This document shows, piece after piece, positions 7,680 through 55,739 of a DNA stretch of 64,000 nt. Origin of the DNA: Candidatus Woesebacteria bacterium RBG_16_42_24 (GTDB lineage: Bacteria > Patescibacteriota > Microgenomatia > UBA8517). The notes beneath the pieces are model-generated. The model was not told the origin of the DNA. It saw only the letters and a program-made list of their open reading frames with translations, and did not search any database. Location: the NCBI GenBank assembly GCA_001792115.1, contig MGFX01000001.1:240606-304605 (forward strand), in the 5' to 3' direction. Both the position numbers and the translations under genes were made by a program. Position 1 is the first letter of the stretch. The number at the start of each line of letters is the position of its first letter.

Positions 7680-8333
7680 TTGCTACACTTAAACCTGCCT
7701 GATTTGATCAATTCGAAACACTATAATATAGACAAGCAAGAATCCTTGAGAACCTTAAAGGGTACAATGCTGAAAGACAAGAGCTTGCCCTTGAGACAGG
7801 GGGCAACCAATTTAGTTTTTGGCGTAGGCAATCCTGATACCAAAATATTATTTATTGGAGAAGGGCCTGGGTATTGGGAAGACCAAAAAGGCGAACCCTT
7901 TGTAGGAAACGCGGGAAAACTTCTAAACTCTTTACTTCAATTAATCAAACTGGAAAGAAGTAAAGTTTATATAACAAACGTGATACACCATAGACCCCCA
8001 AACAATAGAGACCCAGAGCCTTCCGAGATTGCAGCTTACGCTCTTTATTTAGATAAAATTATAGAAATAATAAAGCCCAGAGTAGTTGTAACATTAGGAA
8101 GATTTTCGATGGGGAAATTTTTACCGGGTGTAAAAATTACAGCTATTCACGGAAGGGAGTTCAGTATAAACTGGAAAGGGAAAGAAACTACCATAGTGCC
8201 CATGTTTCATCCAGCTGCGGCATTAAGAAGCACAGAGGTTTTAAGGGCAATAAAGGAAGATTTTATTAAATTACCCGAAATCTTAAATCGGGTAAAAGAA
8301 GAACCTAAGGGAGAACAAATGAAGTTTATATAA
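7680..8333 (+). CDS. Uracil-DNA glycosylase, family 4 (start probably the internal ATG near 7767)
   Basis: The family 4 UDG signature is present: GEGPGYWEDQKGEPFVGNAGKLL ... HPAAALR. Confidence 0.8.
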   Translation: MLHLNLPDLINSKHYNIDKQESLRTLKGTMLKDKSLPLRQGATNLVFGVGNPDTKILFIGEGPGYWEDQKGEPFVGNAGKLLNSLLQLIKLERSKVYITNVIHHRPPNNRDPEPSEIAAYALYLDKIIEIIKPRVVVTLGRFSMGKFLPGVKITAIHGREFSINWKGKETTIVPMFHPAAALRSTEVLRAIKEDFIKLPEILNRVKEEPKGEQMKFI

Positions 8334-16227: not shown

Positions 16228-16272
16228 TAATTAGATTAGTGTAAAATTTCTATTCTAATGTTAAATAGTCAC

Positions 16273-16364
16273 AATTTCCAATTTCCAGATTCCAGATTCC
16301 AATTAGTTATCGAATCCCAAAATTTGAAATTATTTGGAGATTGGAGATTGGAGATTGGAGATTA
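16273..16364. repeat. Inverted arrays of heptamer tandem repeats: (AATTTCC/AGATTCC)x4 ... (TGGAGAT)x4, forming a potential long hairpin downstream of alaS
   Basis: Read directly: aatttccaatttccagattccagattccaat ... ttggagattggagattggagattggagatt. Confidence 0.8.
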
Positions 16365-16371
16365 ATTCGAG

Positions 16372-34695: not shown

Positions 34696-35004
34696 ATGCC
34701 GGTAGGAAGATTACGAGTCAAGCTAAAATCCTACGACCACCGTGTCATCGACGAGGCGGCAGGAAAGATATTGGATACGGCCCTGGCGACCGGAGCTAAA
34801 ATAGTTGGCCCCATTCCCCTCCCCACAACACGCACCATAATGAGCGTTAAAGAATCCCCTTTTACCGATAAAGATGCGCAAGAGCATTACGAGATGCTGG
34901 TCCATAAAAGGCTAATCGATATCATCGACCCCAGTGAGCGCACAATTGATTCCCTCTCCAATCTCGACCTCCCCGCAGGTGTCAGTATAGAAATCAAAAT
35001 GTAG
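34696..35004 (+). CDS. rpsJ: 30S ribosomal protein S10
   Basis: 102 aa, S10 family (RLRVKLKSYDHRVIDEA...). Confidence 0.95.
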   Translation: MPVGRLRVKLKSYDHRVIDEAAGKILDTALATGAKIVGPIPLPTTRTIMSVKESPFTDKDAQEHYEMLVHKRLIDIIDPSERTIDSLSNLDLPAGVSIEIKM

Positions 35005-35172
35005 TTTTACTACATTTTCTGACACCGATTGCCCCTCCGAATCGCCCTTCGAGCCGTGTATGAATAATACGGGAAAGGCGAGAAGTAAGATTGTGTGGGG
35101 CAGGAGTTGCGATCGAAATCAAGATGTAGGGCGAAACTCCGTTTGCCCCTCCGAATCGCTCTTCGAGCCGTG
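34973..35172. repeat. Tandem imperfect direct repeat of the rpsJ 3' end plus 30-nt downstream box
   Basis: Copy A is 34973-35058 (gcaggtgtcagtatagaaatcaaaatgtag ... ttgcccctccgaatcgcccttcgagccgtg). Copy B is 35100-35172 (gcaggagttgcgatcgaaatcaagatgtag ... ttgcccctccgaatcgctcttcgagccgtg). A third degenerate copy of the 'atcgaRatYaagatgtag' segment lies at 35809-35826. Confidence 0.7.
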
Positions 35173-35214
35173 GCAGCTTGAATCTTTTCCGCATTTTCTT
35201 CATAGTGAAGAAGT

Positions 35215-35784
35215 ATGAAAAAGAATTCTTCCGATGAACGGGGTAGCGTTCCTGTAATAATCGGAGTAATTATTCTCGCGATAGTCGTATTTGGAATATC
35301 TTATTGGACCTACTTCAAATACTACAGACTCGCCTATACTGACAAAACCTATAATTTTTCACTAATGAATCGCAGAGGGTGGCACGAACTTCCAAAAGAA
35401 GAAGGCGTGTATTATTCATTGGGCACATCCGATGTTCCAGGCGGAAAGGTGGTATCGACCTTCAGGATATCGCCGATTACCCGGAAGGATGATACTAGCA
35501 TTACAGACTCTTCTTCATTCCAAAAAATATGCAGCGACCTAATTAAAGAAATAAACTACACAATCCTGGGCTGGTTTGATGTAAGGTATAGCGGTTTAGA
35601 GGGACATGTTTGTAAAAGTGAGGGAAAGGCTGCCGATATAGATAGAATAAACATTTTCAGTATCTATTTACTTATGAATCCGGGCGGGACATACGATTAT
35701 ATGATCTTCACGACTTATCCAAAAGGAAACCTAGTTGAGGAAGCGAAAGTGAATGAGATGTTGCGTTACTTCCACGCAGATTAA
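35215..35784 (+). CDS. Hypothetical membrane-anchored protein
   Basis: An N-terminal TM helix (VPVIIGVIILAIVVFGISYW) is present. No recognisable motifs. Confidence 0.4.
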   Translation: MKKNSSDERGSVPVIIGVIILAIVVFGISYWTYFKYYRLAYTDKTYNFSLMNRRGWHELPKEEGVYYSLGTSDVPGGKVVSTFRISPITRKDDTSITDSSSFQKICSDLIKEINYTILGWFDVRYSGLEGHVCKSEGKAADIDRINIFSIYLLMNPGGTYDYMIFTTYPKGNLVEEAKVNEMLRYFHAD

Positions 35785-35870
35785 AAGTAGAGTTAATATT
35801 AATTTCCCATCGAGATTAAGATGTAGTTTCTCGCGCCAGCCTCGGAAAAGTTGTATAATCCGTCCCTGTT

Positions 35871-36386
35871 GTGACTAAAGAAGTCGCCATAACCCCTGAG
35901 AGCCAGCGTGAGCTGGTTAGGGCGTTTTTGGCAAAACTTGGAGGGGTTGCCATCGCGACGCCAGATATGAGTAGGGACTACAAATTTGTAGCCGTACTGC
36001 CTGAATTAGACGAATGGACTCGGCTTTTTTCGTATGACGGCGCTTCAGTAAAACCCGACTCTATATGGGAAAAATTACACATTCAGAATGTAAATATTAC
36101 TGACTCGACAATGATTTTTTTACGAATAGATGGCAATGTTGCAAAGACAAAAATTGTCGAGGTAGATACTGCCGGATGGGATGAGACTGATTTACAAAGA
36201 GGACACGTTTTGGGATTTAGAGAAAAACCGTTAGTTTTTGATAGGGCACAAAGGATTCTTAGTCATTTGAAAAAAACGGCCTCAAGATTCTTTGTGGTGG
36301 GGTTTCCCATAGACAATCCCAACGACCATAAGCTTATGGTTCCTATCAGAATGGGTGGGGACGATATAGGCGAAGACGATTTTTAA
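35871..36386 (+). CDS. Hypothetical protein (GTG start, 12 nt after a TATAAT box)
   Basis: ORF with coding-like composition. A TATAAT box lies upstream at 35853-35858. Confidence 0.4.
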   Translation: MTKEVAITPESQRELVRAFLAKLGGVAIATPDMSRDYKFVAVLPELDEWTRLFSYDGASVKPDSIWEKLHIQNVNITDSTMIFLRIDGNVAKTKIVEVDTAGWDETDLQRGHVLGFREKPLVFDRAQRILSHLKKTASRFFVVGFPIDNPNDHKLMVPIRMGGDDIGEDDF

Positions 36387-36654
36387 AAAAGCAAAAACTA
36401 TTTTCCGCCTTCACCTACATTTTGGCGGATGAAATAGAAAGAAGGTCGAAAAAATCGTAATATAATCAAAATGGAGAGAGAACAGCAGATTGTTGAAGCA
36501 AAACGAGTTTTGCGCCGACAACTTAGCCTTCGGGGTAAACCACATACGCGGCATATAAGGATGCACCGTCAGGCCGCCGAAGATAATCATAACAGACTCC
36601 CCGCCCCACGAATTTAAGTGGCAACTTTAGCTTCAAAGGGGTAGAATCTAGAAA

Positions 36655-37095
36655 GTGTTAAAGGTGAATGACAAAGCTCCCGAGTTTAAACTACCCGATC
36701 AAAAGGGCAATTTACACAGCCTTAGCGATTATAAAGGGGGTTGGCTTTTGATTTATTTTTATCCGAAGGATTTTACTCCGGGTTGTACCAAAGAAGCCTG
36801 CTCATTCAGGGATAATTTTTCGCGCCTTAAAGACAAGCTGCAACTAGTTGGCATAAGCGGGGACAGCGTAGAAAGCCACAAAAATTTCAGCGAAAAGTAT
36901 AATTTACCTTTTACAATACTTTCCGATCCGGAAAGAAAAGCGATAAAAAATTACGGCACAAATGGACTGATTTTTGCCAAAAGAACTTCTTTTTTAATAA
37001 ACCCTCAAGGAACAATTGAGAAAATTTACGAAAAAGTCGATCCCACCACCCACGCCGAAGAAATCCTTAAAGACATTTCTTCCCTGACAGCTTAA
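36655..37095 (+). CDS. bcp: Peroxiredoxin, Bcp-type thiol peroxidase
   Basis: The FTPGCTKEAC peroxidatic-cysteine motif is present. 146 aa. Confidence 0.8.
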   Translation: MLKVNDKAPEFKLPDQKGNLHSLSDYKGGWLLIYFYPKDFTPGCTKEACSFRDNFSRLKDKLQLVGISGDSVESHKNFSEKYNLPFTILSDPERKAIKNYGTNGLIFAKRTSFLINPQGTIEKIYEKVDPTTHAEEILKDISSLTA

Positions 37096-37190
37096 ATCAT
37101 CCTTTGAAAATCTGGCAAATTTAACCCCTAGAGAGCCTGCAACGTTAAAATTTTGGTTAATAATTATTTACGTTGTAAAATACGGGCAGA

Positions 37191-37664
37191 GTGACTGATA
37201 TAGACGCTTTAACCAATAAATCAAAAAAGGTAATCGACACAATTGAATATATCGATCTTGCAACCATAACCGAAGATGGAAAGCCCTGGAACTCACCTTT
37301 ATGGTTTGTAAGAGACGATAAGTACAACCTTTATTTTTACTCACCCAAATACACCCAACATTCAGAGAATATAAGAAACAACGGCAATGGATTTGTTGTT
37401 ATTTACGACTCGAGAGCTCCGGAAGGCACAGGATTCGGAGTCTATATGACGGTTGAAGTGAAAGAGCTAAATACGGTTTCCGAGGTCGACGAAGCCCTCA
37501 AATGGGTTTATAAGAAAAAGAAAAAGAAAAGGACACCGCAGGAGTTTTTGGGCAATTCCCCTAGAAGGATTTACAAGGTTACTCCCAAGGAGGCCTGGGT
37601 AAATGACGCTGAATTGAAAAATGGTTTTTACCTAGACTATCGAATTCCAATAAAACTTACATAA
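37191..37664 (+). CDS. Pyridoxamine 5'-phosphate oxidase-like FMN-binding split-barrel protein
   Basis: LATITEDGKPWNSPLWFVRDDKYNLYFYS is typical of the PNPOx-like / general stress protein 26 family. Confidence 0.55.
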   Translation: MTDIDALTNKSKKVIDTIEYIDLATITEDGKPWNSPLWFVRDDKYNLYFYSPKYTQHSENIRNNGNGFVVIYDSRAPEGTGFGVYMTVEVKELNTVSEVDEALKWVYKKKKKKRTPQEFLGNSPRRIYKVTPKEAWVNDAELKNGFYLDYRIPIKLT

Positions 37665-37670
37665 ATAAAT

Positions 37671-38138
37671 ATGGGCAGTGTGAATAAGAAAAAACTAGTA
37701 ACTTTTTTAACCGGGGCTCGTGCAAACACCTATGCGGCTGGTAAGGGAAAGGTAAAACCAGTTTTTCCGGGCTCGACCCAGCTTGAATATAAGGAGGGAG
37801 ACTGGCTATATCGCGACATTTACAATTTGGGAAATAAAATCTTCGTGGGTCTTGAGACAGTCTATTTCAAGGGGAAACCCGTCTGGTCGATGTGCTATTA
37901 CGGAGATTTTAAAAAAATGACGGAAAAAGAAATTGATGAGATTCTGCGGGAAGCCTTAATTAAATACAAAGATAAAGTAAGACTTTGGTACCAGGTGGAG
38001 TGGAAAAACAAAAACTTCAAGTATATTTGCACACCCGACTCCCGAGAAGGCATAGAAGAAGTGTCCGGACTCGAGGAAATTTATAAAGACCGAGAGAAAG
38101 TTTATTATCTTTATTACGCCGGCGGCCTCATAGGCTAA
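37671..38138 (+). CDS. Hypothetical protein, DUF5680-like
   Basis: YAAGKGKVKPVFPGSTQLEYKEGDWLYRD...GKPVWSMCYYG resembles a family that I know only as a domain of unknown function. Confidence 0.35.
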   Translation: MGSVNKKKLVTFLTGARANTYAAGKGKVKPVFPGSTQLEYKEGDWLYRDIYNLGNKIFVGLETVYFKGKPVWSMCYYGDFKKMTEKEIDEILREALIKYKDKVRLWYQVEWKNKNFKYICTPDSREGIEEVSGLEEIYKDREKVYYLYYAGGLIG

Positions 38139-38205
38139 CGGCACATTCCTCGCCCCAGCCTCGGTCATATTTTTATTTGAACACTGGGAAATTCGAAGGC
38201 GGGAA

Positions 38206-38904
38206 GTGTTAAAATCAATTGTGAAATTTGACCCGGTTAAGCACTGGAACGATCGCCATTTCGAACTTCCAAAAAATAGAGATACTTCTTCTTACGCGAA
38301 AGACAAAGAAAAATTTTTTCCTCGAAATTCCCTAGTCTGTGATTTGGGTGGCGGTGTTGGAATAGACTCAAATTACTTTTTAGATAAAGGACATGAAGTC
38401 TACCTTCTGGACATTTCTGACTATGCGCTCAAGGCTGCCCGCAACACTGCGGTTTCAAAAGGCCTTGGCTCCCACCTCATTACCAAAGAGGTAGATTTTT
38501 CGGTAGGTATGTTTCCTCTGGAAGACGGTTTGGTCGATATTGTCTATTCAAGGCTTGCCCTTCATTACTTTCCCCTCGATCGTATGAAAGAAATATTTTC
38601 CGAAATTTATAGAATTTTAAAAAATGGAGGGAAGGCGTTCATAGCCGTAAAGTCGCCCGACGACAAAAGGGAAATGGGAGCCCTCAGAAAAATTGCAAAG
38701 GAAACAAGTCCTGGAATTTTTGACGAAAACGGCCTGATTAAAACTAGATTTACAAAAGTGCAGTACAAAACAGTTCTTAAAAAAGCCGGAGTGTTAAGTT
38801 TTGAAGTGCGAGATTGTGTTGAACATTTTGGTAAAGGTAAAGTTTATGTTAAATCCAAAGCAGAAAAACTTCTATATATAGAAATCATAATAAATAAAGT
38901 TTGA
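38206..38904 (+). CDS. Class I SAM-dependent methyltransferase (small-molecule type)
   Basis: The glycine-rich motif I is VCDLGGGVGID. LDISDYAL follows, with post-I motifs (VDIVYSRLALHY ... LKNGGKAFI). Confidence 0.7.
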   Translation: MLKSIVKFDPVKHWNDRHFELPKNRDTSSYAKDKEKFFPRNSLVCDLGGGVGIDSNYFLDKGHEVYLLDISDYALKAARNTAVSKGLGSHLITKEVDFSVGMFPLEDGLVDIVYSRLALHYFPLDRMKEIFSEIYRILKNGGKAFIAVKSPDDKREMGALRKIAKETSPGIFDENGLIKTRFTKVQYKTVLKKAGVLSFEVRDCVEHFGKGKVYVKSKAEKLLYIEIIINKV

Positions 38905-39125
38905 CTTTCGGGATTTTTAAATTAAGGGGTCCGGCCCATTCATAAATCTCAATTTTAATCCTGAGTGAAATCGAAGGATTATAATCCCGAGCGAACTTGT
39001 TCTGAGTAACCTCGAAGGAGTCGAGGGACTTCTGGCAACTTTAGCCTCGAGAGAGTAGAGTACCTCAAAGTTATTTCATGGACAGGTTGGGCCATTGACA
39101 ATATGACAAATTTATCATAATATAA

Positions 39126-39422
39126 ATGAAGTTAATTTTTGATCCTAGGGCTGAAAAGTTCCTGGATAAAATTAGGGACAAAGAAAGAACAAAGGTATTT
39201 GAATATATTCTTTTATTCGAGGAATACGGATTTGAACTTGATAACAGATACCTTAAGAAGGTAACGAAAAATATTTGGGAGTTAAGGCCTAAAAATATAA
39301 GACTATTTTTTATCAAGAGAGCCACAAATTATTTAATCGTTCACGCAATGTATAAAAAATCCCAGAAAATAACCAAGAAAACGCTAAAATTGTTAGAAAA
39401 AAGAATTAAAAGTTACCTATGA
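39126..39422 (+). CDS. Type II toxin, HigB/RelE superfamily (phage Gp49-like)
   Basis: WELRPKNIRLFF... is characteristic of Gp49/HigB-like toxins. Its 3' end overlaps the downstream HTH gene by 4 nt. Confidence 0.6.
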   Translation: MKLIFDPRAEKFLDKIRDKERTKVFEYILLFEEYGFELDNRYLKKVTKNIWELRPKNIRLFFIKRATNYLIVHAMYKKSQKITKKTLKLLEKRIKSYL

Positions 39423-39730
39423 AAGCAAAAAAAATAGACACATCGAAATTCATTACTTTCCACGAGCTTAGAAGAAAGTGGATGAAAGATCCGGAGTTTG
39501 TAAGGGAGTGGGAAAAGTTAGAGCCCCACTATCAAATAGCAAGACAAATGGTTGGGGCCAGAATCAAAAAGAAAATGTCCCAGGAGGAACTTGCCAAAAA
39601 AATTGGAACCGGGCAGGCGGTAATTTCAAGACTCGAAGGAATGAATGCCAAGCCATCAATTTCACTTTTGAAAAGAGTTGCCGACGCATTGGACACACCA
39701 ATAAAAATAACAATTAACCCCGATCGGTAG
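39419..39730 (+). CDS. XRE-family HTH antitoxin (HigA-like)
   Basis: HTH: MSQEELAKKIGTGQAVISRLE. The C-terminal region is DUF-like (KPSISLLKRVADAL). Confidence 0.65.
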   Translation: MKAKKIDTSKFITFHELRRKWMKDPEFVREWEKLEPHYQIARQMVGARIKKKMSQEELAKKIGTGQAVISRLEGMNAKPSISLLKRVADALDTPIKITINPDR

Positions 39731-39788
39731 GCCATTCTAGATTCTGGCAACTTTAGCTTCAACCTCGGGAAAGTAGTAGAATATCCAA

Positions 39789-47591: not shown

Positions 47592-47805
47592 ATTTGCTAA
47601 TATCTCCGGAAGAAAAGCTGTCAAAGCATTTCTGAAATTTGGCTACGTCCACAGTCACTCCTCCGGCGATCATGCAATTCTTCAAAAGAAAGGCGCACCT
47701 ACCTTATCGATCCCATTACACAAGGAGATAGCTCCGTTTTTATTAAAGTCTCAAATTAAAAGAGCGAATATTAGGCCCGATGATTTCCTGAAAGCTTTAA
47801 AATGA
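47584..47805 (+). CDS. hicA: HicA-family mRNA interferase toxin
   Basis: GRKAVKAFLKFGYVHSHSSGDHAILQKKGAPTLSIPLHKEI is YcfA/HicA-like. It overlaps hicB by 8 nt. Confidence 0.7.
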   Translation: MPRFANISGRKAVKAFLKFGYVHSHSSGDHAILQKKGAPTLSIPLHKEIAPFLLKSQIKRANIRPDDFLKALK

Positions 47806-48114
47806 TCAGTCCGGTAGGTAACCTTTCCCCAATAAATTTGACCCCCTCCGTCGCTAAAGCTTTGAAGAGCTAGGCCATAATCCCAGGTTTAGTTTCAACA
47901 CCATTGTCATTACCCTATAGTCAATTTGCTTTCCTGTGTGAGTCGTGCTATACTTCTTTTCTAGTTGGCAGATTGAAGAAATAGATCTGCTTAATTTTTG
48001 AATTTATTTTGAAGTCGGTAAGATAAAGATACCCCAAATCTTTCGTATTTATTCGTATCTTGTCCCCCACATCACGATTTTCTCATTTAAGCAGTTTTAT
48101 TTCTTTAATACTTT

Positions 48115-49317
48115 ATGTATAACAGGCATAACCATCGCTCAAACGGACACGGAGGGGGAAGAAGGTTCCAAAACAGATTTCCCTCCAGAAGCCAAAAAAC
48201 TGACGCCGAAATCGTGAGAGCGATTCAAGCTATCCAAATTACAGAAGCCCAAGAAGGCGATAGCCCCCAGAGCGCCTATATCCCCAAAAACAGATTTGAA
48301 GATTTTGCAATATCCGGGCAGCTTAAGAAAAACATTTCAGATAAAAGGTATGTAACCCCTACTCCCATTCAGGATCAGGTAATACCGGCAATACTTCAAG
48401 GCTCGGACGTTATAGGAATTGCCAATACAGGAACGGGCAAAACCGCCGCATTCTTAATTCCTTTAATCGAAAAAGTCTGCAATGACAGAAGCCAGAAGGT
48501 ACTTATAATTACTCCCACCCGTGAGCTTGCCTTGCAAATTAACGAAGAACTTTATGGCTTCTCCTATGGTTTGGGAATTAAGAAGGCACTTTGTGTTGGG
48601 GGAATGAATGAAAGAAAGCAAAGATATGAATTGTCATGCATTCCCAATTTTGTAATAGGCACACCCGGGCGCTTAAGGGAATTTATTGAAAGTCGGGCAC
48701 TTCCTATTTCGGAGTTTAACAATATCGTAATTGATGAGGCAGACAGGATGGTAGACATAGGGTTTATCGCCGATATTAAGTATTTTATTTCGTGCCTTCC
48801 CCAAACTCGCCAGTCGCTTTTTTTCTCTGCAACAATTCCCCCTAAGGTAAAGCTGATTCTCGGATCTTTTGTTCGAAACCCGATAACGATTTCGGTAAAG
48901 CTAAAAGAAAGCATAGATAATATTAAGCAGGATATTATTAAGGTTACCGATAGCCAGGGGAAGGTGGACCAGCTAGAGAACATCCTTTCTCAGGAAGGCT
49001 TTAATAAGGTTCTTATTTTTGGACGTACAAAATGGGGAGTTCAGAGACTTTCGAATGAGCTTGTAAGGCGCGGCTTTAAGGCCGGGGCTATTCACGGAAA
49101 CAAAAACCAAAGTCAAAGGCAAAGGGTTTTGGATGACTTTAAAAATAGCAGAATCTCTATTCTTTTGGCTACGGACGTAGCTTCCCGGGGACTCGATATT
49201 GAGGATGTAAGTCACGTAATAAACTACGATTTACCGAATACCTTCGAAGATTATATTCATAGGATTGGAAGAACGGGCAGGGCAAACAAAAAAGGCGTTG
49301 CCTTAACCTTCGTTTAA
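48115..49317 (+). CDS. DEAD-box ATP-dependent RNA helicase
   Basis: The Q-motif region is present. Motif I is ANTGTGKTAAF, motif Ia is PTRELALQ and motif II is DEAD (VIDEADRM). SAT, HRIGRTGRA and an N-terminal Arg/Gly-rich tail are also present. Confidence 0.85.
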   Translation: MYNRHNHRSNGHGGGRRFQNRFPSRSQKTDAEIVRAIQAIQITEAQEGDSPQSAYIPKNRFEDFAISGQLKKNISDKRYVTPTPIQDQVIPAILQGSDVIGIANTGTGKTAAFLIPLIEKVCNDRSQKVLIITPTRELALQINEELYGFSYGLGIKKALCVGGMNERKQRYELSCIPNFVIGTPGRLREFIESRALPISEFNNIVIDEADRMVDIGFIADIKYFISCLPQTRQSLFFSATIPPKVKLILGSFVRNPITISVKLKESIDNIKQDIIKVTDSQGKVDQLENILSQEGFNKVLIFGRTKWGVQRLSNELVRRGFKAGAIHGNKNQSQRQRVLDDFKNSRISILLATDVASRGLDIEDVSHVINYDLPNTFEDYIHRIGRTGRANKKGVALTFV

Positions 49318-49358
49318 AAACCAAAAAATTCGCCCCCGTTCTGGTATATGATACTTAT

Positions 49359-49697
49359 ATGGATGATTCGCTAGTTTGCCCCTCTTGTCATATTGAAGTA
49401 CGTTCAACCGATTATTTTTGCTACAACTGCGGCAAAAATCTTAAGCCCAAGCCTCTTTCTACTTCTTTAACCCAACAAATACTAATTTATTTGGGAAGCG
49501 TATTCCTGCCGCCCTTGGGGCTCGTCTGGGGAGTCCGTTACCTGCGCCAGGAAGATAACACTTCAAAAATTGTGGGGGTAATCTCTATTGTTTTAACCGC
49601 TATTACTTCGGTTTTATTAATAAAATTCACAAATGACCTGATAAAAACAGTAAACGAGCAGGTAAATAGCCAACTTCAAGAGATGCAAGGTTTTTAG
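49359..49697 (+). CDS. Zinc-ribbon plus two-TM protein, hypothetical
   Basis: CPSCH...CYNCG is followed by hydrophobic helices. Confidence 0.35.
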   Translation: MDDSLVCPSCHIEVRSTDYFCYNCGKNLKPKPLSTSLTQQILIYLGSVFLPPLGLVWGVRYLRQEDNTSKIVGVISIVLTAITSVLLIKFTNDLIKTVNEQVNSQLQEMQGF

Positions 49698-49772
49698 GAT
49701 AATCTTAGGACTATAGAAATATGTTCCCACATTGTAATTGTCACCTAATCCTCAGTATAATTTCATTACATT

Positions 49773-50015
49773 ATGAGTGAGCGCGAAGCAGACTTACGTT
49801 GCCCATTTGATGAAGAACGTCCGTGTCTCGATGGGTGCGAACTTCGGCCTTTCGTTTTGAGGATGTTGGCTATATATCATCATCTAGCCCCCCCGGATGA
49901 AGTAAGAAAATCAATTGTAACTTGTCCCTCAAGACGAGGGGACGGCGAGAGAGCAATAACTGGAGGGGTAAACAACCACATCAAAGAAAAATTTTGCCTG
50001 CATTCTAGGCATTAA
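49773..50015 (+). CDS. Hypothetical Cys-rich small protein
   Basis: ORF only; no recognisable motifs. Confidence 0.25.
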   Translation: MSEREADLRCPFDEERPCLDGCELRPFVLRMLAIYHHLAPPDEVRKSIVTCPSRRGDGERAITGGVNNHIKEKFCLHSRH

Positions 50016-50272
50016 AAGAACTTCCTTCTTTGAAGCAAATTTGTGCTATACTTAGATATTGAACTCAGATTCTCCAGTTGCTAAATTGATCGATACTTTC
50101 TTGCAAAGAGGAGGAAGGATAGATAAATATTATCTTCGAGGTACAAACCAATCAAAACGCTCCCTGGTTTATCTACACGGATGGTTTTCGGGGCAGAATA
50201 TCAAATCCGCAATCCTCAAAGCCTTCGGAAAGGTTTAGAATAGCTAGAAGCAACTTAATCTTCTTAACTTGC

Positions 50273-50527
50273 TTATGCAGCTTTTTGGGAGATGTTATGG
50301 GTTCTTCTTTCTTTGGCTTCCGTTTGCCTTCTTACATTGGCCAGTTCTCTCTCGTCTCTTAATTTTTGATCTTTGACAAGCTGTCTATCCACAATTGTCT
50401 GACAATCGGGATCGGGACAGGCAGTAAGCTTGGTAACAATAAGCGAACTACCTATGTATTCTTTATAAGTTTTTACAACAACTCTTACTTTTCCGCACCT
50501 CATACAGACATTTAATCCCGTATTCAT
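50273..50527 (-). CDS. Hypothetical zinc-ribbon protein
   Basis: CMRCG ... CPDPDC. It is on the minus strand, convergent with the flanking genes. Confidence 0.3.
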   Translation of the reverse strand: MNTGLNVCMRCGKVRVVVKTYKEYIGSSLIVTKLTACPDPDCQTIVDRQLVKDQKLRDERELANVRRQTEAKERRTHNISQKAA

Positions 50528-50548
50528 ATAATCTTTTAGAGTGAATTT

Positions 50549-50860
50549 TTACCAGCGCCTAGATTGCCTTTGCCCTCCGCCTCCTCTGTCATATCCCGCG
50601 GAACTTCTTTCCTCTCGCGGCCTTGCTTCATTGACTATGATTTTTCTTCCACCAAAATCCTTACCGGAAAGCTCTTTTATAGCTTTATCGGCGTCTGCGT
50701 CATTTTTATATTCTACAAAACCGAATCCTTTTCCTTGACCGGAATATCTGTCGGTAATGACTGTTGCGCTTGCAACCTCACCAATTTCTGCGAAAAATTG
50801 ACTGAGTTCTGCGTCAGTAGCGGTGTAGGGAAGACCTCCTACGAATAATCTTTTTGCCAT
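50549..50860 (-). CDS. RRM-type glycine-rich RNA-binding protein
   Basis: RNP-2 is LFVGGL and RNP-1 is KGFGFVEY. The C-terminus is RGG-rich. Confidence 0.75.
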   Translation of the reverse strand: MAKRLFVGGLPYTATDAELSQFFAEIGEVASATVITDRYSGQGKGFGFVEYKNDADADKAIKELSGKDFGGRKIIVNEARPREERSSAGYDRGGGGQRQSRRW

Positions 50861-50992
50861 TTATTATCTCACCACCTTTGTGTACTTACGTGAGGATTAT
50901 TCCATCTAAGAAGCTTTAAACCGCTTGGTAGAAGTAATCGTAACCTAAGTAACTAATGATACTTTATCATAAAAAATGTAAAATAGCAAAGT

Positions 50993-51664
50993 ATGTATAA
51001 ACTTTCTCCTTCCGATTTCAAATACCTTTACCAGGACTGCAAGCACTGCTACTACCAAAAGGTGAAAAAGGGAATTACCCTGCCCTCAATCGGAATGCCC
51101 GGAGTTTTTTCCAAAATGAATTCACTTCTACAATCGGCGATTATGGGAATGAATCTAAAGGATGTAAATTCCGAACTCCCATCAGGAATAATCGAAGTTA
51201 AGGAAGGATTTCTGCGATCCGCCCCAATTCCGCCCTCCAAAAAGTCCTTTATAAGTGGGCGATTCGACATTACTTCGAAACTTGAGGGCGGCTCAATTGC
51301 CGTAATTGACTTTAAAATTACCGACCCGACAGAGGAAAAAATCCAAAAATACTCAAGTCAGCTCCATGCCTATAAATTCTCCCTCGAAAACCCGTCTTAT
51401 GGTGAGGCCAAAAAGGTGGCCAAGATGGGAATTATAGCCATAAACCCGGAAGACATTTCTTTTCCGGGGGATAAAGTAATTTTTAAGGCAACCCCGACCT
51501 GGTTTGAAATAAAGGAAGATATGGATAGTTTTTATAATTTCATATCCGAAGTAACAGAGCTTTTGGAAGGACCCACCCCTAAAGAAAATCCTGATTGTGC
51601 GTGGTGCAAATACCGCCTCTGTTTCGCCCACCCCGAAGCCACACAGGATGAGATTCCTTTTTGA
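50993..51664 (+). CDS. Cas4/RecB-family PD-(D/E)xK nuclease with Fe-S cysteines (stand-alone)
   Basis: A GRxD-like motif (SGRFDIT), a D/ExK motif (AVIDFKIT) and QxxxY (QLHAYKF) are present. Cys motifs are CKHC at the N-terminus and CAWCKYRLC at the C-terminus. Confidence 0.55.
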   Translation: MYKLSPSDFKYLYQDCKHCYYQKVKKGITLPSIGMPGVFSKMNSLLQSAIMGMNLKDVNSELPSGIIEVKEGFLRSAPIPPSKKSFISGRFDITSKLEGGSIAVIDFKITDPTEEKIQKYSSQLHAYKFSLENPSYGEAKKVAKMGIIAINPEDISFPGDKVIFKATPTWFEIKEDMDSFYNFISEVTELLEGPTPKENPDCAWCKYRLCFAHPEATQDEIPF

Positions 51665-51679
51665 GTTCTCCGAACCCAA

Positions 51680-51708
51680 TTGACGTCTGAAGCTAAATGA
51701 TTTATAAT
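51680..51708 (+). promoter_or_regulatory. Sigma70-type promoter (TTGACG-N17-TATAAT) restoring transcription into rplC and the S10/spc genes downstream of the island
   Basis: -35 at 51680-51685 and -10 at 51703-51708. Confidence 0.6.
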
Positions 51709-51808
51709 CTTGGCATCAATGGAGGTGACTAGCCAGAAATAACCTCTACATAAGAAGTAGGATGTGCCAGTTGAGGGCGCCTCCGGCGCCTTTTTTTGTG
51801 AGAAAAAG

Positions 51809-52702
51809 ATGATCAATGCTATTTTAGCCTCAAAAGGGAAAATGGGAGCGGCCTTCGTCAAAGGCCGAAGGTTTGCTGTGACAAAAGTTCTGGCCGGCCC
51901 GTGCGTGGTCATCCAGGTTAAAAAAATGGAAAAAGACGGATATTGGGCGGTCCAGCTTGGCTTCGGAGAAAGAAGAATTAAGAATATTAGTAAGGCCATG
52001 CAAGGACACCTCAAGTTAAGTCAAAACTCAAAAGTCAAAACTCAAAGCTCTAATCTCAAATCTCAAAACACCCTCCCCAGATTTATAAGAGAGGTAAGGC
52101 TAGAAGAAGAACCAAAAATGAATGTTGGAGATGAAGTTAAAGCCTCCGACGTTTTTAATGTCGGAGATATTGTTAGTGTTTACGGCATTTCCAAGGGTAA
52201 GGGTTTTCAGGGAGTGGTAAAGCGCTGGGGATTTGCGGGGGGTCCCAGAACCCACGGACAATCTGACCGTGAGCGAGCACCGGGCTCAATCGGCCAAGGA
52301 ACAACTCCGGGCAGGGTTTATAAAGGTAAACATATGGCAGGAAGAATGGGAGGGGATAGTGTTACTGTTAAAAATTTGCAAGTGGTTTCTATTGAGCCTG
52401 AAACAGGACTGATTGAGATTTCGGGTCCTGTACCGGGGGATACGGGAGGCCTTCTTAAGATAACGAGAACAGCTAAGGGCGAGCTTGAAGGAATTCAGGA
52501 AGTAGCGGCCCAGGTTGTAGAAGGAGAGCCCTCCTCCGCCGAGGCTACGGAGGACAAGGTCCCCGCCGACGCTGGCCTGCCTGCCGGCAAGGCAGGAGCT
52601 GTGGCGGGCAAGCCCGCCGACGAGGCTCCAACCGAAAGCGGCGCACCCGCCGCAACTAAAGAGGTCCCAGCTGCTAAAGGAGGTCAAAGTGACAAAAGCT
52701 AA
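51809..52702 (+). CDS. rplC: 50S ribosomal protein L3 with an internal low-complexity insertion and a long Ala/Pro/Glu-rich C-terminal extension (ORF track starts at 51764)
   Basis: MINAILASKGKMGAAFVKG... is L3-like. GKGFQGVVKRWGF and HGQSDRERAPGSIGQ are L3 motifs. Confidence 0.9.
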   Translation: MINAILASKGKMGAAFVKGRRFAVTKVLAGPCVVIQVKKMEKDGYWAVQLGFGERRIKNISKAMQGHLKLSQNSKVKTQSSNLKSQNTLPRFIREVRLEEEPKMNVGDEVKASDVFNVGDIVSVYGISKGKGFQGVVKRWGFAGGPRTHGQSDRERAPGSIGQGTTPGRVYKGKHMAGRMGGDSVTVKNLQVVSIEPETGLIEISGPVPGDTGGLLKITRTAKGELEGIQEVAAQVVEGEPSSAEATEDKVPADAGLPAGKAGAVAGKPADEAPTESGAPAATKEVPAAKGGQSDKS

Positions 52703-53357
52703 TGTCTATTCGGCAAAAGGCGTAAAGAGCGGAAGCGTAAATCTTCCCAAAGATTTTAATGAGAATCAGAATTTAGCGCTTTTGGCGCAAGCAATTCGGG
52801 TTCAGACCGCACGCGCCCATATCGGACTCGCTAAAGTCAAAACCCGAGCCGAGGTTGATAGAACCAAAAAGAAAGTCTATCGCCAAAAAGGTACAGGAGG
52901 TGCAAGGCACGGAAGCCGAAGTGCCCCTATTTATGTTGGCGGTGGAGTTGCCCACGGCCCCAAGGGAGTAAAAAGGGAGCTGACTCTCCCCAAGATTCTC
53001 GCCAAAAAGGCTTTAAATATTGCCCTGACGCTTAAGGCAAAAGACGGGGAAGTAGTTGTCGTAAATGGCCTGGGGGCAATAGCAAAAACAAAGGAAATAC
53101 AGAGTTTAATCGATAAAATTAAAAAAACTAGGGAGTTAAAGAAGGGACGATTTACGTTTGCATTAGCTAACACTAACCTTGAGAGCCGAAGGAGCCTGAA
53201 AAATCTTGAAGGAGTTGCGGTCTTGCCTTACGAAAATCTTAACGCATACAGGGTATTTTACGGGGGAGTTTTGGTTTTAGATAAAGATGTTTTTACTAAG
53301 AAACCCAAAACTTTAAACTCTAAACTCAAAACCACTAAGATAGAAATAAATAAATGA
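52689..53357 (+). CDS. rplD: 50S ribosomal protein L4
   Basis: L4 family (RQKGTGGARHGSRSAPIYVGGGVAHGPK). Confidence 0.9.
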   Translation: MTKANVYSAKGVKSGSVNLPKDFNENQNLALLAQAIRVQTARAHIGLAKVKTRAEVDRTKKKVYRQKGTGGARHGSRSAPIYVGGGVAHGPKGVKRELTLPKILAKKALNIALTLKAKDGEVVVVNGLGAIAKTKEIQSLIDKIKKTRELKKGRFTFALANTNLESRRSLKNLEGVAVLPYENLNAYRVFYGGVLVLDKDVFTKKPKTLNSKLKTTKIEINK

Positions 53358-53638
53358 AATTAATTCCAATAATTACTGAAAAAAGTTTGAGGGACGCAAA
53401 AGTTGGTAGATACACCTTTAGCGTTGACCGTCACTTAAGAAAGCCCGAGATAAAAAAAGCCATTGATGAGGCATTCGGCGTCCATGTGGTGAGCATTCAA
53501 ACGTCAAAAATTGGCGGAAGCCAGAAAAGAAACATGAGGGGCTATCAACAAAGGACTTTGGCCGAAAAAAGAGCCAGGGTTACTTTAAAAGAAAAAGAAT
53601 CAATTGATTTATTTGAAGAGAAAAAATCAGCCAAATGA
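53354..53638 (+). CDS. rplW: 50S ribosomal protein L23
   Basis: L23 family; operon position. Confidence 0.9.
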   Translation: MKLIPIITEKSLRDAKVGRYTFSVDRHLRKPEIKKAIDEAFGVHVVSIQTSKIGGSQKRNMRGYQQRTLAEKRARVTLKEKESIDLFEEKKSAK

Positions 53639-54384
53639 AAAATTTAAAAAGAATATTGGCAAAAAATAGCGGAAGAAGCGCAGGATCCCTGACGATTAGG
53701 CATCAAGGTGGCCGACAAAAAAGATTTTTGCGAGACATTGACTTTGAAAGAGATAAAATTGGTGTGACAGGAAGGGTGGAGACAATCGAATACGACCCCA
53801 ATCGTTCGGCAAATATTGCACTCGTTGTCTATGAGGATGGGGATAGGCGTTACATCTTAGCCCCAAACGGTATGGAAATTGGTCAAAAAGTAATCAGCGG
53901 CCCCTCCGCTCCCATTGAGATGGGAAATGCGATACCTTTGGGGAAAATCCCGATAGGAACAGGAATTCATAACCTCGAGGTCAGACATGGTAAAGGCGGG
54001 CAGCTGGTTAAATCCGCAGGGTCTCTCGCGCATGTACAGGGAAAAGAGGGGAACTTTGTACTTGTAAAGCTTCCTTCCGGGGAGGTAAGGCGTTTTGACC
54101 CAGAAGCGTATGCAACAGTCGGTCAAGTGGGCAGGGTTGAGGCCAAAACCGAGCACATAGGGAGTGCAGGAAGAAAAAGAAGGATGGGTATAAGGCCGAC
54201 CGTAAGAGGGGTTGCCATGCACCCGGGTGCCCACCCCCACGGAGGAGGAGAGGGAAGAAGCCACATTGGTTTGAAGTATCAAAAGACTGTTTATGGAAAG
54301 CGAGCAGTTGGAAAAACAAGAAGAAGAAAGAAATATTCCGATAAATTAATCGTTTCGGGAAGGAGCTTCGGGCCCCACCATTAA
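53635..54384 (+). CDS. rplB: 50S ribosomal protein L2
   Basis: GRNxxGRITxRHxGGGHKR-type motifs ([11 protein letters not shown]; [13 protein letters not shown]). Confidence 0.95.
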
Positions 54385-54385
54385 C

Positions 54386-54667
54386 ATGAGTAGGAGTTCA
54401 AAAAAAGGACCATTTGTTGATGCCAACCTTGCCAGGAAGGTTGCGGTTGGCATGGGGACTAAAGAGGCCCCGATTAAAACTTGGTCCCGCTCGTCCCAAA
54501 TTCCTCCGGAATTTGTGGGCAAGTACTTTCAGGTCCATAACGGCCGAATATTTATCGACGTTTTTGTAACGGAAGATATGGTGGGACATAGACTCGGAGA
54601 ATTTGCTCCGACCCGAACATTTAGAGGACACGGAGAAATTGTTAAGCGAATTTTAGAAAAGACATAA
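54386..54667 (+). CDS. rpsS: 30S ribosomal protein S19
   Basis: [11 protein letters not shown]...VHNGR; S19 family. Confidence 0.95.
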
Positions 54668-54672
54668 AGAAT

Positions 54673-55086
54673 ATGGAAATAATTGCGACACAGAAATATT
54701 TAATCACTTCTCCCAAGAAATTGAGGGAAGTGGCGGCTGTTGCCAAAAAGCTTTCGCCAATACGGGCAATTGAGATCTTGCCTTTTATCGGAAAACGCGC
54801 CGCAACTCCCCTCTTAAAGGTGATAAAGAATGCAATCGCCAGTGCCAAGGCGAAGGGTAGCAGCGAGGGGGAACTTGCTTTTAAAGAAATTCAAATAGGC
54901 GAAGGCCCGAGACTCAAAAGGTTCAGGGCCGGAGCCCATGGCCGGGCCAAGCCTTATAAGAGGCGGATGAGCCACATCCGAGTTGTGCTAACAACTCAGA
55001 ATTCCCAAATTCCAGTTTCCAAATCCCAAATAAATTCAAATGCCCAAAATTCTAGTGCGGAAAAGAAAAAGGAGGGGAAGAAATAA
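54673..55086 (+). CDS. rplV: 50S ribosomal protein L22 with a heptamer-repeat-encoded C-terminal tail
   Basis: L22 core (ATQKYLITSPKKLREVAAVAKK...) plus the tail NSQIPVSKSQINSNAQNSSAEKKKEGKK. Confidence 0.9.
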   Translation: MEIIATQKYLITSPKKLREVAAVAKKLSPIRAIEILPFIGKRAATPLLKVIKNAIASAKAKGSSEGELAFKEIQIGEGPRLKRFRAGAHGRAKPYKRRMSHIRVVLTTQNSQIPVSKSQINSNAQNSSAEKKKEGKK

Positions 55087-55088
55087 CC

Positions 55089-55739
55089 CGTGGGACAAAA
55101 AATTAATCCGGTGGGAATGAGGATTGGGAGCTTTCTGCCTTGGAAGTCGCGTTGGTTTGTCGAAGGTGAAAAGTACAAAGAGTTTTTGTGGAAGACGTCA
55201 GAATTAGATATGCACTTATGGATAAGCTTAAACTCGCAGGAATAACGTCTGTTGAAATTGAGAGGCTTCCCAAATCCATGGTTCTTAATTTAACCGTATC
55301 GCGCCCCGGAGTTGTAATAGGTAGAGGTGGGTCCGGAATTGAGGAGGTTAAAAAATACGTTTTGGGAATTATAAAGAATGTTCGAGGCGAACTTCCCAAA
55401 GACTTGAAGATCGATTTAAAGGTTACCGAAGTAAAAAATCCTGAAATTTCGGCACATTTAGTTGCTTCAAGAATTGCTGGGGAGCTCGAGCGAAGGATGC
55501 CCCACAGGCGAGTGGTATCTAAAGCGACCGAAAGAGTCATGGCGGGAGGCGCCTTGGGAGTGAAGGTCGTCTTGGGTGGAAGAATCGGCGGAGCTGAAAT
55601 TTCGAGAGTCGAAAAATTCCAGATGGGTTCGGTTCCGACGCAAACATTAAGAGAAACAATAGATTATGCTCAAATACCGGCACTATTAAAAAGAGGATAC
55701 GTCGGAGTAAAAGTCTGGATCCACAGGAAGGAAGAGTAA
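55089..55739 (+). CDS. rpsC: 30S ribosomal protein S3; the 5' end reads in three frame segments (apparent +1 / -1 frameshifts)
   Basis: From GTG 55089, frame A gives VGQKINPVGMRIGSFLP, the S3 KH-domain N-terminus. After the T3 run at 55139-55141 the S3-like sequence WKSRWFVEGEKYKEFL continues only in the +1 frame. After the T5 run at 55183-55187 it returns to frame A (VEDVRIRYALMDKL... to the stop at 55739). Confidence 0.8.

What the first reader, a model, noticed from the sequence alone, without database searches (positions are those of the whole stretch)
52021..55050. Heptamer repeats also extend into 3' parts of ribosomal protein genes, producing low-complexity tails or insertions
The L22 tail 'NSQIPVSKSQINSNAQNS' is encoded by attccca/aattcca/gtttcca/aatccca heptamers (54998-55050). 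The L3 insertion 'LKLSQNSKVKTQSSNLKSQNT' is encoded by (tcaaaRc)x7 (52021-52070). The L4 C-terminus 'KPKTLNSKLKTTK' is encoded by aaactYt/aaactca heptamers (53305-53340). A 7-nt period is not a multiple of 3. Each repeat therefore cycles through three frames, yet reading frames are maintained. This implies selection for translatable repeat expansions in essential proteins.
Basis: seen in the sequence. Interest (0 to 1): 0.5.

Follow-up and report, generated by a model that had tools for sequence, protein, structure and literature searches.

The report
In-frame heptamer microsatellites in ribosomal proteins
Three ribosomal protein genes (uL3, uL4, uL22) of an uncultured Woesebacteria bacterium carry real 7-base tandem repeats read in frame as floppy loops or tails. 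They look like tolerated products of DNA slippage in a repeat-prone genome, not selected protein extensions.

Summary
Window 52021-52069 is a (TCAAAAC)x7 array inside a uL3 loop. 53304-53338 is a weaker array of the same family in the uL4 tail. 55000-55053 is a degenerate AAATTCC-family array in the uL22 tail.

Period 7 is the only over-represented period in the window, with 7 strong arrays against 0.05 expected. The same two unit families occur in nearby intergenic arrays.

The organism is Candidatus Woesebacteria (the Rifle RIFCSPLOWO2_01_FULL_43_11 / RBG_16_42_24 species). Three other assemblies of the species, 99.7-99.9% identical, carry every array unchanged, so these are not hypervariable loci.

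Between species the arrays do vary. The ancestral uL3 loop is 9 aa. About 40% of the nearest Woesebacteria uL3 clusters carry expanded loops, mostly 4-unit heptamer arrays. The window has 7 units, exactly 21 nt more than its best-matched relative.

uL22 tails of two other species carry homologous AAAYYCN arrays. The closest uL4 relatives lack the 17-aa tail.

The best explanation is replication slippage of heptamer repeats in disordered, tolerant segments, filtered by frame. Nothing indicates positive selection for "translatable expansions": 59% of random heptamers are stop-free anyway.

This is a new instance of a known class of repeat. Interest is modest.

The parts
51809..52702 (+). rplC (uL3) gene, 297 aa from ATG 51809. 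Public gene models start at GTG 51764.
   Evidence: ORF list. PF00297 homologs with 100% identity in public Woesebacteria assemblies. PDB uL3 matches at E 4e-47.
52013..52075 (+). Expanded uL3 loop between the conserved QGHL and PRF motifs. It is 63 nt (21 aa, KLSQNSKVKTQSSNLKSQNTL), against 27 nt (9 aa, KGAIKDKKA) in the ancestral state.
   Evidence: Alignments with orthologs. 14-residue insertion relative to T. thermophilus uL3. AlphaFold pLDDT <50 for residues 68-87.
52021..52069 (+). (TCAAAAC)x7 heptanucleotide array, read in frame inside uL3.
   Evidence: TRF score 63. Lag-7 autocorrelation 0.83. Identical in 3 other assemblies of the species. 4-unit versions at the same site in L166, L169, L170, L172 and L094.
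53304..53354 (+). 17-aa C-terminal extension of uL4 (PKTLNSKLKTTKIEINK) that the closest relatives lack. It contains the heptamer array 53304-53338, a TCAAAAC-family array of about 5 degenerate units.
   Evidence: TRF score 36. Family match at 53312-53332. uL4 in L166, L167 and L170 ends ...F(V/A/T)K(N)KK*.
55000..55053 (+). Degenerate AAATTCC-family heptamer array encoding NSQIPVSKSQINSNAQNS in the uL22 C-terminal tail. It lies 37 nt upstream of the rpsC start (GTG 55090).
   Evidence: TRF score 30. Family match at 55007-55027. Homologous AAAYYCN arrays follow the VVL(K)TT codons in L170 and L172. Other relatives' tails end GTKN* and overlap rpsC in a different frame.
57013..57044 (+). Intergenic (AAATTCC)x4.6 array between rplN and rplX, of the same unit family as the uL22 tail array.
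   Evidence: TRF score 57.. Sequence read.
63583..63671 (+). Intergenic pair of inverted heptamer arrays (AAATTCC-type, then ACTGGAA-type) between rpmJ and rpsM. The two arrays can form a hairpin.
   Evidence: TRF. Fold gives -24.4 kcal/mol on the + strand and -35.1 on the - strand, z -3.3 and -4.2.
16272..16363 (+). Intergenic pair of heptamer arrays, (CAATTTC/AGATTCC)x4.7 and (TTGGAGA)x4.3, forming a long G-U-containing hairpin. It sits directly upstream of the ATG at 16372.
   Evidence: TRF. Fold gives -40.8 kcal/mol, z -6.3, on the + strand only.
57967..58001 (+). Intergenic heptamer arrays (AAATAGT and AGTGCAG) between rplE and rpsN. They form part of a hairpin.
   Evidence: TRF. Fold gives -25.4 kcal/mol, z -2.2. 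One SNP at 57989 among strains.

Best explanation
These are heptanucleotide microsatellites, the kind of long simple sequence repeat that is over-represented in many bacteria. They arose and turned over by slipped-strand mispairing in a genome prone to 7-nt repeats. They persist inside essential ribosomal protein genes only where the protein tolerates any polar, disordered filler: a surface loop of uL3 and the C-terminal tails of uL4 and uL22.

Seven and three share no factor, so an array reads as one cyclic 7-aa peptide in every frame. In uL3 only net changes of 3 units (21 nt), or otherwise frame-compensated changes, survive. This quantises copy number (4 units in several species, 7 here) and makes the array look stable within a species. 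At the 3' ends of rplD and rplV any unit change merely moves the stop codon a few codons, so frame is free to drift there.

Shown:
- the arrays are real;
- the periodicity is at the DNA level;
- the units are shared with intergenic arrays;
- strains do not differ;
- species differ in length and unit, and units are homogeneous within each array;
- the insert is predicted to be disordered.

Inferred:
- slippage as the generating mechanism;
- neutrality of the encoded peptides;
- solvent exposure of the uL3 loop.
For: (1) Period 7 alone is enriched: 7 arrays against 0.05 expected, and 13 of 33 TRF rows. In related loci period 7 is also the commonest period that is not a multiple of three.

(2) Autocorrelation is equal at lags 7, 14, 21 and 28. 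Coding and intergenic arrays share units. Both point to a DNA-level origin.

(3) The same uL3 loop carries arrays in many Woesebacteria:
- Loop lengths in the nearest uL3 clusters are 9 aa in 57, and 13-33 aa in 47 listed sequences (about 42 distinct clusters).
- Of 17 expanded loops for which DNA was available, 9 have best period 7, 8 of them with shuffle p<=0.002. Two have period 8.
- Units differ between lineages: TCAAAAC, TTCAAAA, ATCAAAD, ACAAATK, AACAGGW.
- Unit position 7 is uniform within an array but differs between species. This is a signature of concerted evolution.

(4) The window and L166 differ by exactly 3 units.

(5) uL22 tails in L170 and L172 carry positionally homologous AAAYYCN arrays of different length. 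The window's uL22 ends in a different frame, relative to rpsC, from relatives that end GTKN*.

(6) In simulation, changes of 7 or 14 nt truncate uL3 at 76-97 aa but leave uL4 and uL22 intact apart from shorter tails.

(7) The insert has pLDDT <50.

(8) Other in-frame heptamer arrays occur in CPR genomes: (GCTCAAA)x5 inside uS8 in L064 and an array in a membrane-protein loop in L019.

(9) Literature: heptameric SSRs are over-represented in many bacteria and 7-32% are intragenic; a polymerase-slippage hypothesis has been proposed (PMC4692102). SSRs are enriched near protein termini for structural reasons (PMC3315296).
Against: - No unit-number polymorphism was seen among four near-identical assemblies, so ongoing slippage is not directly observed.
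- The step from the 27-nt ancestral loop to the 39/42-nt arrays is not a whole number of heptamers. Extra indels, or overwriting of the flanks, must be assumed.
- Six of about 9 array loci lie in the 19% of the window occupied by the ribosomal protein cluster (binomial p=0.002). All single arrays have the C/A-rich strand as sense strand, just upstream of a start codon. Pure neutral slippage does not predict this.
- Why the period is 7 and not 5, 6 or 8 remains unexplained.
Confidence: 0.72

Rival explanations
1. RNA-level element. The arrays in the uL4 and uL22 tails belong to a class of G-poor, unstructured heptamer arrays placed just upstream of start codons. Such arrays could act as a standby site, spacer or protein-binding site for translation of the next cistron. 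Their translation as part of the upstream ORF would then be incidental.
For: - The uL4 array ends 16 nt before the rplW ATG. The uL22 array ends 37 nt before the rpsC GTG.
- Arrays of the same family sit 42 nt before rplX and 17 nt before rpsM.
- The arrays are nearly free of G and are predicted to be unstructured (-2.9 kcal/mol, z 0.06).
- Arrays are enriched in the ribosomal protein cluster (p=0.002).
- Xanthomonas and Nostoc heptamers likewise sit within 50 bp upstream of ORFs with the C-rich strand as sense strand (PMC4692102).
Against: - The uL3 array is 210 nt inside its gene, with no downstream start codon nearby.
- In a compact, co-directional operon almost all tolerated space is 'upstream of a start codon', so position does not discriminate between the explanations.
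- The closest relatives manage with overlapping stop/start junctions and no array.
Confidence: 0.17
2. Adaptive protein extension. The K/S/Q/N-rich uL3 loop and the tails are selected ribosome-surface features, for example contacts with rRNA or with a lineage-specific factor. Heptamer slippage would be only the means of generating them.
For: - Expanded loops are widespread, and independent lineages converge on similar peptides (KKSQNSKLKTQN-like).
- The 4-unit state recurs in at least 5 species.
- The loop does not vary within the species.
Against: - The convergence is explained by the shared A-rich seed in the ancestral loop (ATCAAAGACAAAAAG) and by the frame constraint.
- More than half of the relatives keep the 9-aa loop.
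- Older arrays decay into non-repetitive, variable sequence, as in L164, L165 and L171.
- The insert is predicted to be disordered.
- The uL22 tails differ completely in sequence between species.
Confidence: 0.08
3. Phase-variable contingency loci or assembly artefacts. On this view the repeats are hypermutable switches, or they are errors made by short-read assemblers.
For: Non-triplet SSRs inside genes are the classical phase-variation device. Repeats can also be mis-assembled.
Against: - Four independent assemblies from different samples agree base for base across all arrays.
- The genes are essential and single-copy.
- A frameshift in uL3 would be lethal.
Confidence: 0.02

Closest known systems
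Over-represented heptameric simple sequence repeats of bacteria (Mrazek et al. 2007, as cited in PMC4692102): the GGGAATC repeats of Xanthomonas and the GGGGA(T/C)T repeats of Nostoc (Rehm et al. 2015, PMC4692102)
   Same: - 7-nt unit, spread around the genome and mostly intergenic, with a minority intragenic (7-11% in Xanthomonas, 32% in Nostoc).
- Often within 50 bp upstream of ORFs, with the C-rich strand as sense strand.
- Some occur as inverted pairs able to form hairpins.
- Copy number differs between related species.
- The reverse complement of the window's AAATTCC or AGATTCC unit (GGAATTT, GGAATCT) shares the GGAAT core with GGGAATC.

   Different: - Here the units are A/T-rich with only GG, so the G-quadruplex rationale does not apply.
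- The host is a CPR bacterium with a small genome.
- Three arrays lie in frame inside essential ribosomal protein genes.
- In uL3, copy number appears to be quantised in 3-unit steps.
Cyanobacterial STRR heptanucleotide repeats, including STRRs inside the RNase P RNA gene of heterocyst-forming cyanobacteria (Vioque 1997; title seen)
   Same: Tandem 7-nt repeats are tolerated inside an essential, highly conserved gene of the translation and RNA-processing machinery, at a structurally permissive position.
   Different: - The phylum and the unit sequences differ. STRR consensus units are recalled from memory and were not tested here.
- There the host gene is an RNA, so no reading-frame constraint applies.
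SSR enrichment at protein termini in prokaryotic coding regions (Lin & Kussell 2012, PMC3315296)
   Same: Repeats accumulate near the C-terminus, where frameshifts and indels do little harm. This matches the uL4 and uL22 tail arrays.
   Different: That paper's abstract does not mention heptamers, and its methods were not read here. The internal uL3 array is an exception to the U-shaped density curve the paper describes.
SSR-mediated phase variation (contingency loci of Haemophilus, Neisseria and others)
   Same: A non-triplet tandem repeat lies inside a coding sequence.
   Different: The genes here are essential, there is no strain polymorphism, and there is no on/off logic.

Membership tests
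Heptanucleotide simple sequence repeats (long SSRs) | Head-to-tail copies of a 7-nt unit, at least about 3-4 copies | tested here: met
   TRF gives 7.0, 3.6 and 4.1 copies. Lag-7 autocorrelation is 0.83, 0.62 and 0.50.
Heptanucleotide simple sequence repeats (long SSRs) | Period 7 over-represented relative to chance and to other periods in the same genome | tested here: met
   7 arrays against 0.05 expected, and none at neighbouring lags. This covers the 64-kb window only, not the whole genome.
Heptanucleotide simple sequence repeats (long SSRs) | Copy number and unit sequence differ between related genomes | tested here: met
   uL3 has 4 units in relatives against 7 here, and other units in other lineages. 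uL22 arrays in L170 and L172 differ in length. The feature is not met between strains of the same species.
Heptanucleotide simple sequence repeats (long SSRs) | Generated by replication slippage | not testable with these tools
   Inferred from within-array homogeneity. Mutation-accumulation or read-level population data would be needed.
G-quadruplex-forming GGGAATC/GGGGATT heptamer repeats (Xanthomonas, Nostoc) | At least 3 consecutive G per unit and at least 4 units, allowing G4 formation | tested here: not met
   The units are GGAATTT and GTTTTGA on the G-rich strand, with at most 2 consecutive G.
G-quadruplex-forming GGGAATC/GGGGATT heptamer repeats (Xanthomonas, Nostoc) | Located within about 50 bp upstream of an ORF, with the C-rich strand as sense strand | tested here: met
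   True for the uL4 tail, the uL22 tail, and the arrays at 57013 and 63583. Not true for the uL3 array.
Phase-variable contingency locus | Repeat number polymorphic among closely related strains | tested here: not met
   L161, L162 and L163 are identical to the window across all arrays.
Phase-variable contingency locus | A frameshift gives a viable OFF state of a dispensable gene | tested here: not met
   rplC is essential (established knowledge). Changes of 1-2 units truncate it at 76-97 aa.
Conserved lineage-specific ribosomal protein extension (ancestral domain) | Sequence and length conserved across the lineage | tested here: not met
   uL3 loop lengths range from 9 to 33 aa. uL22 tails of 9-53 aa are unrelated in sequence. 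The uL4 extension is absent from the closest relatives.

The most novel reading that the evidence does not exclude
The uL3 loop of Woesebacteria, together with the uL22 tail and, in another CPR genome, a uS8 loop, is a self-renewing microsatellite embedded in an essential protein. It 'breathes' only in three-unit quanta (4, 7, 10 units).

The wider GGAAT-core heptamer family, shared in form with Xanthomonas and Nostoc, would be a functional RNA or DNA element. It would be concentrated in the highly expressed ribosomal protein operon and recognised by a conserved factor. The coding arrays would then be that element overlapping ORFs, not neutral debris.
Probability: 0.12. Interest if true: 0.6.

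Novelty: new member of a known kind. Interest (0 to 1): 0.33.

Why it matters
The finding shows concretely how non-triplet microsatellites can remodel even the most conserved proteins. In CPR bacteria, lineage-specific loops and tails of ribosomal proteins can be repeat debris filtered only by reading frame.

This has three practical consequences:
- Annotators and phylogenomic pipelines that use uL3, uL4 and uL22 as marker genes should mask these segments.
- Lineage-specific 'extensions' of CPR ribosomal proteins should not be read as adaptations without further evidence.
- The uL3 array offers a natural system in which the reading frame quantises microsatellite copy number.

It does not reveal a new mechanism.

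Tried and rejected
- **Length polymorphism between strains.** I aligned three other assemblies of the species. There was none in any array. The only indels were a 21-nt indel in the GC-rich uL3 C-tail and a 1-nt difference in rpsC.
- **uL4 tail as an ordinary ancestral K-rich tail.** I first read it this way from the more distant relatives. I revised this after seeing that the closest relatives end 17 aa earlier.
- **RNA structure in the coding arrays.** There is none.
- **Rfam at gathering threshold.** Nothing was found in the ribosomal protein region.
- **A strict 21-nt rule across all species.** It does not hold. It holds only for the window against L166 and the other 4-unit arrays.
- **Literature on heptamer repeats in Patescibacteria/CPR ribosomal proteins.** Nothing specific was found in the held library. 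Vioque 1997 could not be opened.
- **Retron-like reverse transcriptase at 45979-47004 as a possible source of the repeats.** I found no link and did not pursue it.
- **NJ tree of uL3 cores.** It suggests several independent gains or losses of arrays, but about 200 aa is too short to be trusted for this.
Full report
**What is in the window.**
The region is the S10/spc ribosomal protein cluster on the + strand:

| Gene | Coordinates |
|---|---|
| rplC (uL3) | 51809-52702 |
| rplD (uL4) | 52689-53357 |
| rplW | 53354-53638 |
| rplB | 53635-54384 |
| rpsS | 54386-54667 |
| rplV (uL22) | 54673-55086 |
| rpsC | from GTG 55090 |

The window's uL3 sequence matches P0121 and P0123 exactly across the residue that distinguishes members of the cluster. 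That protein is deposited for Candidatus Woesebacteria bacterium RIFCSPLOWO2_01_FULL_43_11 / RBG_16_42_24. The best uL2 identity to any GTDB species representative is 69%, and the best-matching records are mostly labelled Patescibacteria, Microgenomates or Woesebacteria (some carry other labels).

- 52021-52069 is seven head-to-tail copies of TCAAAAC-like units (TRF score 63, 83% matches).
- 53304-53338, in the uL4 tail, is about five degenerate units of the same family (TRF score 36).
- 55000-55053, in the uL22 tail, is a degenerate AAATTCC-type array (TRF score 30).

These are not chance A-rich codon runs, for four reasons:
- At lag 7 the window contains 7 arrays with at least 17 of 21 matches. 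Markov-1 simulations expect 0.05. There are none at lags 4-6, 8, 10-13 or 15.
- 13 of the 33 TRF rows have period 7.
- (AAATTCC)3 with up to 3 mismatches finds four loci, including the uL22 tail. (TCAAAAC)3 finds only uL3 and the uL4 tail. Each is expected 0.01 times by chance.
- In the uL3 array the autocorrelation is the same at 7, 14, 21 and 28 nt (0.79-0.83) and 0.11 at 3 nt. The repeat is therefore a 7-nt DNA unit, not a 7-aa protein repeat.

**Relation to non-coding arrays.**
The same unit families occur in intergenic arrays:
- between rplN and rplX (57013-57044);
- between rpmJ and rpsM (63583-63671);
- between rplE and rpsN (57967-58001);
- upstream of the ORF at 16372 (16272-16363);
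- upstream of nusA (447-477).

Where two arrays lie in inverted orientation they fold into long hairpins (-40.8 kcal/mol, z -6.3 at 16265-16372). The coding arrays are almost free of G and unstructured.

**Within the species nothing varies.**
Three independent assemblies match the window at 99.7-99.9% identity over 8-21 kb: GCA_001792155.1, ERZ4903072 and ERZ27254873. All carry the uL3, uL4, uL22 and rplN-rplX arrays base for base. The only array difference is one SNP at 57989.

This excludes assembly artefact and argues against phase variation. It also means that ongoing slippage is not directly observed.

**Between species the arrays behave like microsatellites.**
The loop between the conserved QGHL and PR(F/Y) motifs of uL3 is 9 aa (KGAIKDKKA-like, 27 nt) in 57 of the nearest 120 uL3 clusters, and in all the more distant relatives examined. 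It is 13-33 aa in about 42 further clusters.

At the DNA level, 9 of 17 expanded loops have best period 7 (8 of them with shuffle p<=0.002). Two have period 8, and the rest are decayed.

Arrays of four units occur in L166, L169, L170, L172 and L094. The window has seven units. It differs from L166 (same flanks, same units) by exactly 21 nt.

The core TCAAA is shared. Unit position 7 is uniform within an array but differs between species: T in L169, A in L094, C in L170 and in the window. Other lineages have ACAAATK, AACAGGW or GAACAAA units at the same site. This pattern of homogeneity within an array and difference between arrays is the signature of repeated expansion and contraction.

A rough NJ tree intersperses 9-aa and expanded loops, which suggests several independent transitions (weak evidence).

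**uL22.** Most relatives have K/E-rich tails of 9-53 aa with no 7-nt signal. Many of these end GTKN*/GTKS*, encoded by the overlapping rpsC start. L170 and L172, however, carry AAAYYCN arrays directly after the VVL(K)TT codons, as the window does, but of different length. The window's uL22 terminates before rpsC and in a different frame from the GTKN-type relatives. This implies an indel in the tail that is not a multiple of three.

**uL4.** The three closest relatives end ...F(V/A/T)K(N)KK*, with the ATGA overlap to rplW. The window has 17 extra residues containing the array.

**Why the frame is 'maintained'.**
A heptamer array gives the same cyclic 7-aa peptide in all three frames. It is open if none of its seven cyclic trinucleotides is a stop. 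That is true of 59% of random heptamers with this base composition, so no selection for translatability is needed.

In simulated changes of 1 or 2 units, uL3 is truncated at 76-97 aa, whereas uL4 and uL22 merely lose 7-20 tail residues. Changes of 3 units are silent for frame.

The uL3 insert is a 14-residue insertion relative to T. thermophilus uL3. It is predicted to be disordered (pLDDT <50 for residues 68-87).

The simplest account is slippage in tolerant, disordered segments, with purifying selection on frame. In uL3 this quantises copy number and explains the stability within the species.

**Generality.**
In-frame heptamer arrays also occur elsewhere in CPR loci fetched here:
- (GCTCAAA)x5 inside uS8 of L064 (Pfam PF00410, E 2e-45);
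- a CTCAAAT-type array in a membrane-protein loop of a WWE3 genome.

**What is known.**
- Heptameric SSRs are over-represented in many bacteria.
- In Xanthomonas and Nostoc they are mostly intergenic, but 7-32% are intragenic.
- They often lie within 50 bp upstream of ORFs with the C-rich strand as sense strand, sometimes as inverted pairs.
- They differ in length between related species, and a polymerase-slippage origin has been proposed (PMC4692102).
- SSRs are enriched near protein termini for structural reasons (PMC3315296).
- STRR heptamers occur inside the RNase P RNA gene of some cyanobacteria (reference seen).

I found nothing on such repeats in CPR ribosomal proteins. I therefore class this as a new member of a known kind.

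**What remains open.**
- Six of about nine array loci fall in the ribosomal protein cluster, which is 19% of the window (p=0.002).
- All single arrays present the C/A-rich strand as sense strand, shortly before a start codon.
- A functional RNA-level role for the uL4 and uL22 tail arrays therefore cannot be excluded. I give it about 0.17.
- It cannot explain the internal uL3 array.
- The preference for 7 nt remains unexplained.

Noticed in passing
window 55185-55192 (rpsC): The window lacks one A at position 55189 that all three other assemblies of the species have. As a result rpsC (uS3) is split into two frames here (GTG 55090..., then the ORF 55188-55739), while it is an intact 216-aa gene elsewhere. 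This is probably an assembly or consensus error in this record.
   Followed up: yes
window 52574-52594 (3' part of rplC): A 21-nt (7-aa, LPAGKAG) indel polymorphism lies in the GC-rich Ala/Pro/Glu-rich C-terminal tail of uL3. The segment is absent from GCA_001792155.1 and from P0124. This is the only length polymorphism seen among strains, and it is not in a heptamer array.
   Followed up: partly
window 51680-51808: The rplC leader has a promoter-like site (TTGACG-17-TATAAT, 11 of 12 matches) followed by a terminator-like hairpin, GAGGGCGCC-TCC-GGCGCCTTT plus a T-run (51773-51797), 12 nt before ATG 51809. A similar hairpin precedes rplC in L172. Public uL3 models (312 aa) start at GTG 51764 and translate this hairpin, so their first 15 residues are probably not real. 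It may be an attenuator.
   Followed up: partly
window 35002-51700: rpsJ (S10) lies at 34696-35001, about 17 kb upstream of rplC. Relatives have only 1-2 small genes between them. The intervening segment is partly low-GC (36-41% over about 36-48 kb). It carries DUF3800, MazG-like, a methyltransferase plus a HinfI-like restriction enzyme, HicAB, a DEAD helicase, an RRM protein and a PD-(D/E)XK protein. It looks like a defence or mobile island inserted into the S10 operon.
   Followed up: partly
window 45979-47004: A 341-aa reverse transcriptase (Pfam RVT_1, E 1.5e-21) with YVDD and 'TTGLIVN' motifs reminiscent of retron-type enzymes. It sits next to HicB/HicA (47280-47805).
   Followed up: partly
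window 40447-40515 (-): The only Rfam hit at gathering threshold in the window is DUF3800-IX RNA (50.3 bits).
   Followed up: no
window 16272-16372: The 3' arm of the heptamer hairpin is (TTGGAGA)x4. That places four tandem Shine-Dalgarno-like GGAG motifs directly upstream of the ATG at 16372, and all of them pair with the upstream C-rich array. The hairpin is stable only on the + (mRNA) strand because it relies on G-U pairs. It may be a translational control structure.
   Followed up: partly
P0004 (3.6-kb ENA contig): The first 75 residues of this uL3 are identical to the window's protein. From just before the loop onward it matches a different Woesebacteria species with the 9-aa loop. This is either a chimeric assembly or a recombinant, with the breakpoint next to the repeat site.
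   Followed up: no
L173 (uL3 loop, locus position about 10200-10262) and L167 (uL3 loop, locus position about 8200-8245): The same uL3 loop carries an 8-nt tandem array (ATCTACAA x4) in L173 and an 8-nt periodic sequence in L167. The site is therefore a general SSR hot spot, not strictly a heptamer one.
   Followed up: partly
L064 10962-11008; L019 12567-12602: (GCTCAAA)x5 lies in frame inside uS8 of another CPR-like genome. A CTCAAAT-type array lies in frame in a membrane-protein loop of a WWE3 genome, where it encodes the same KSQNSNLKS-type peptide.
   Followed up: partly
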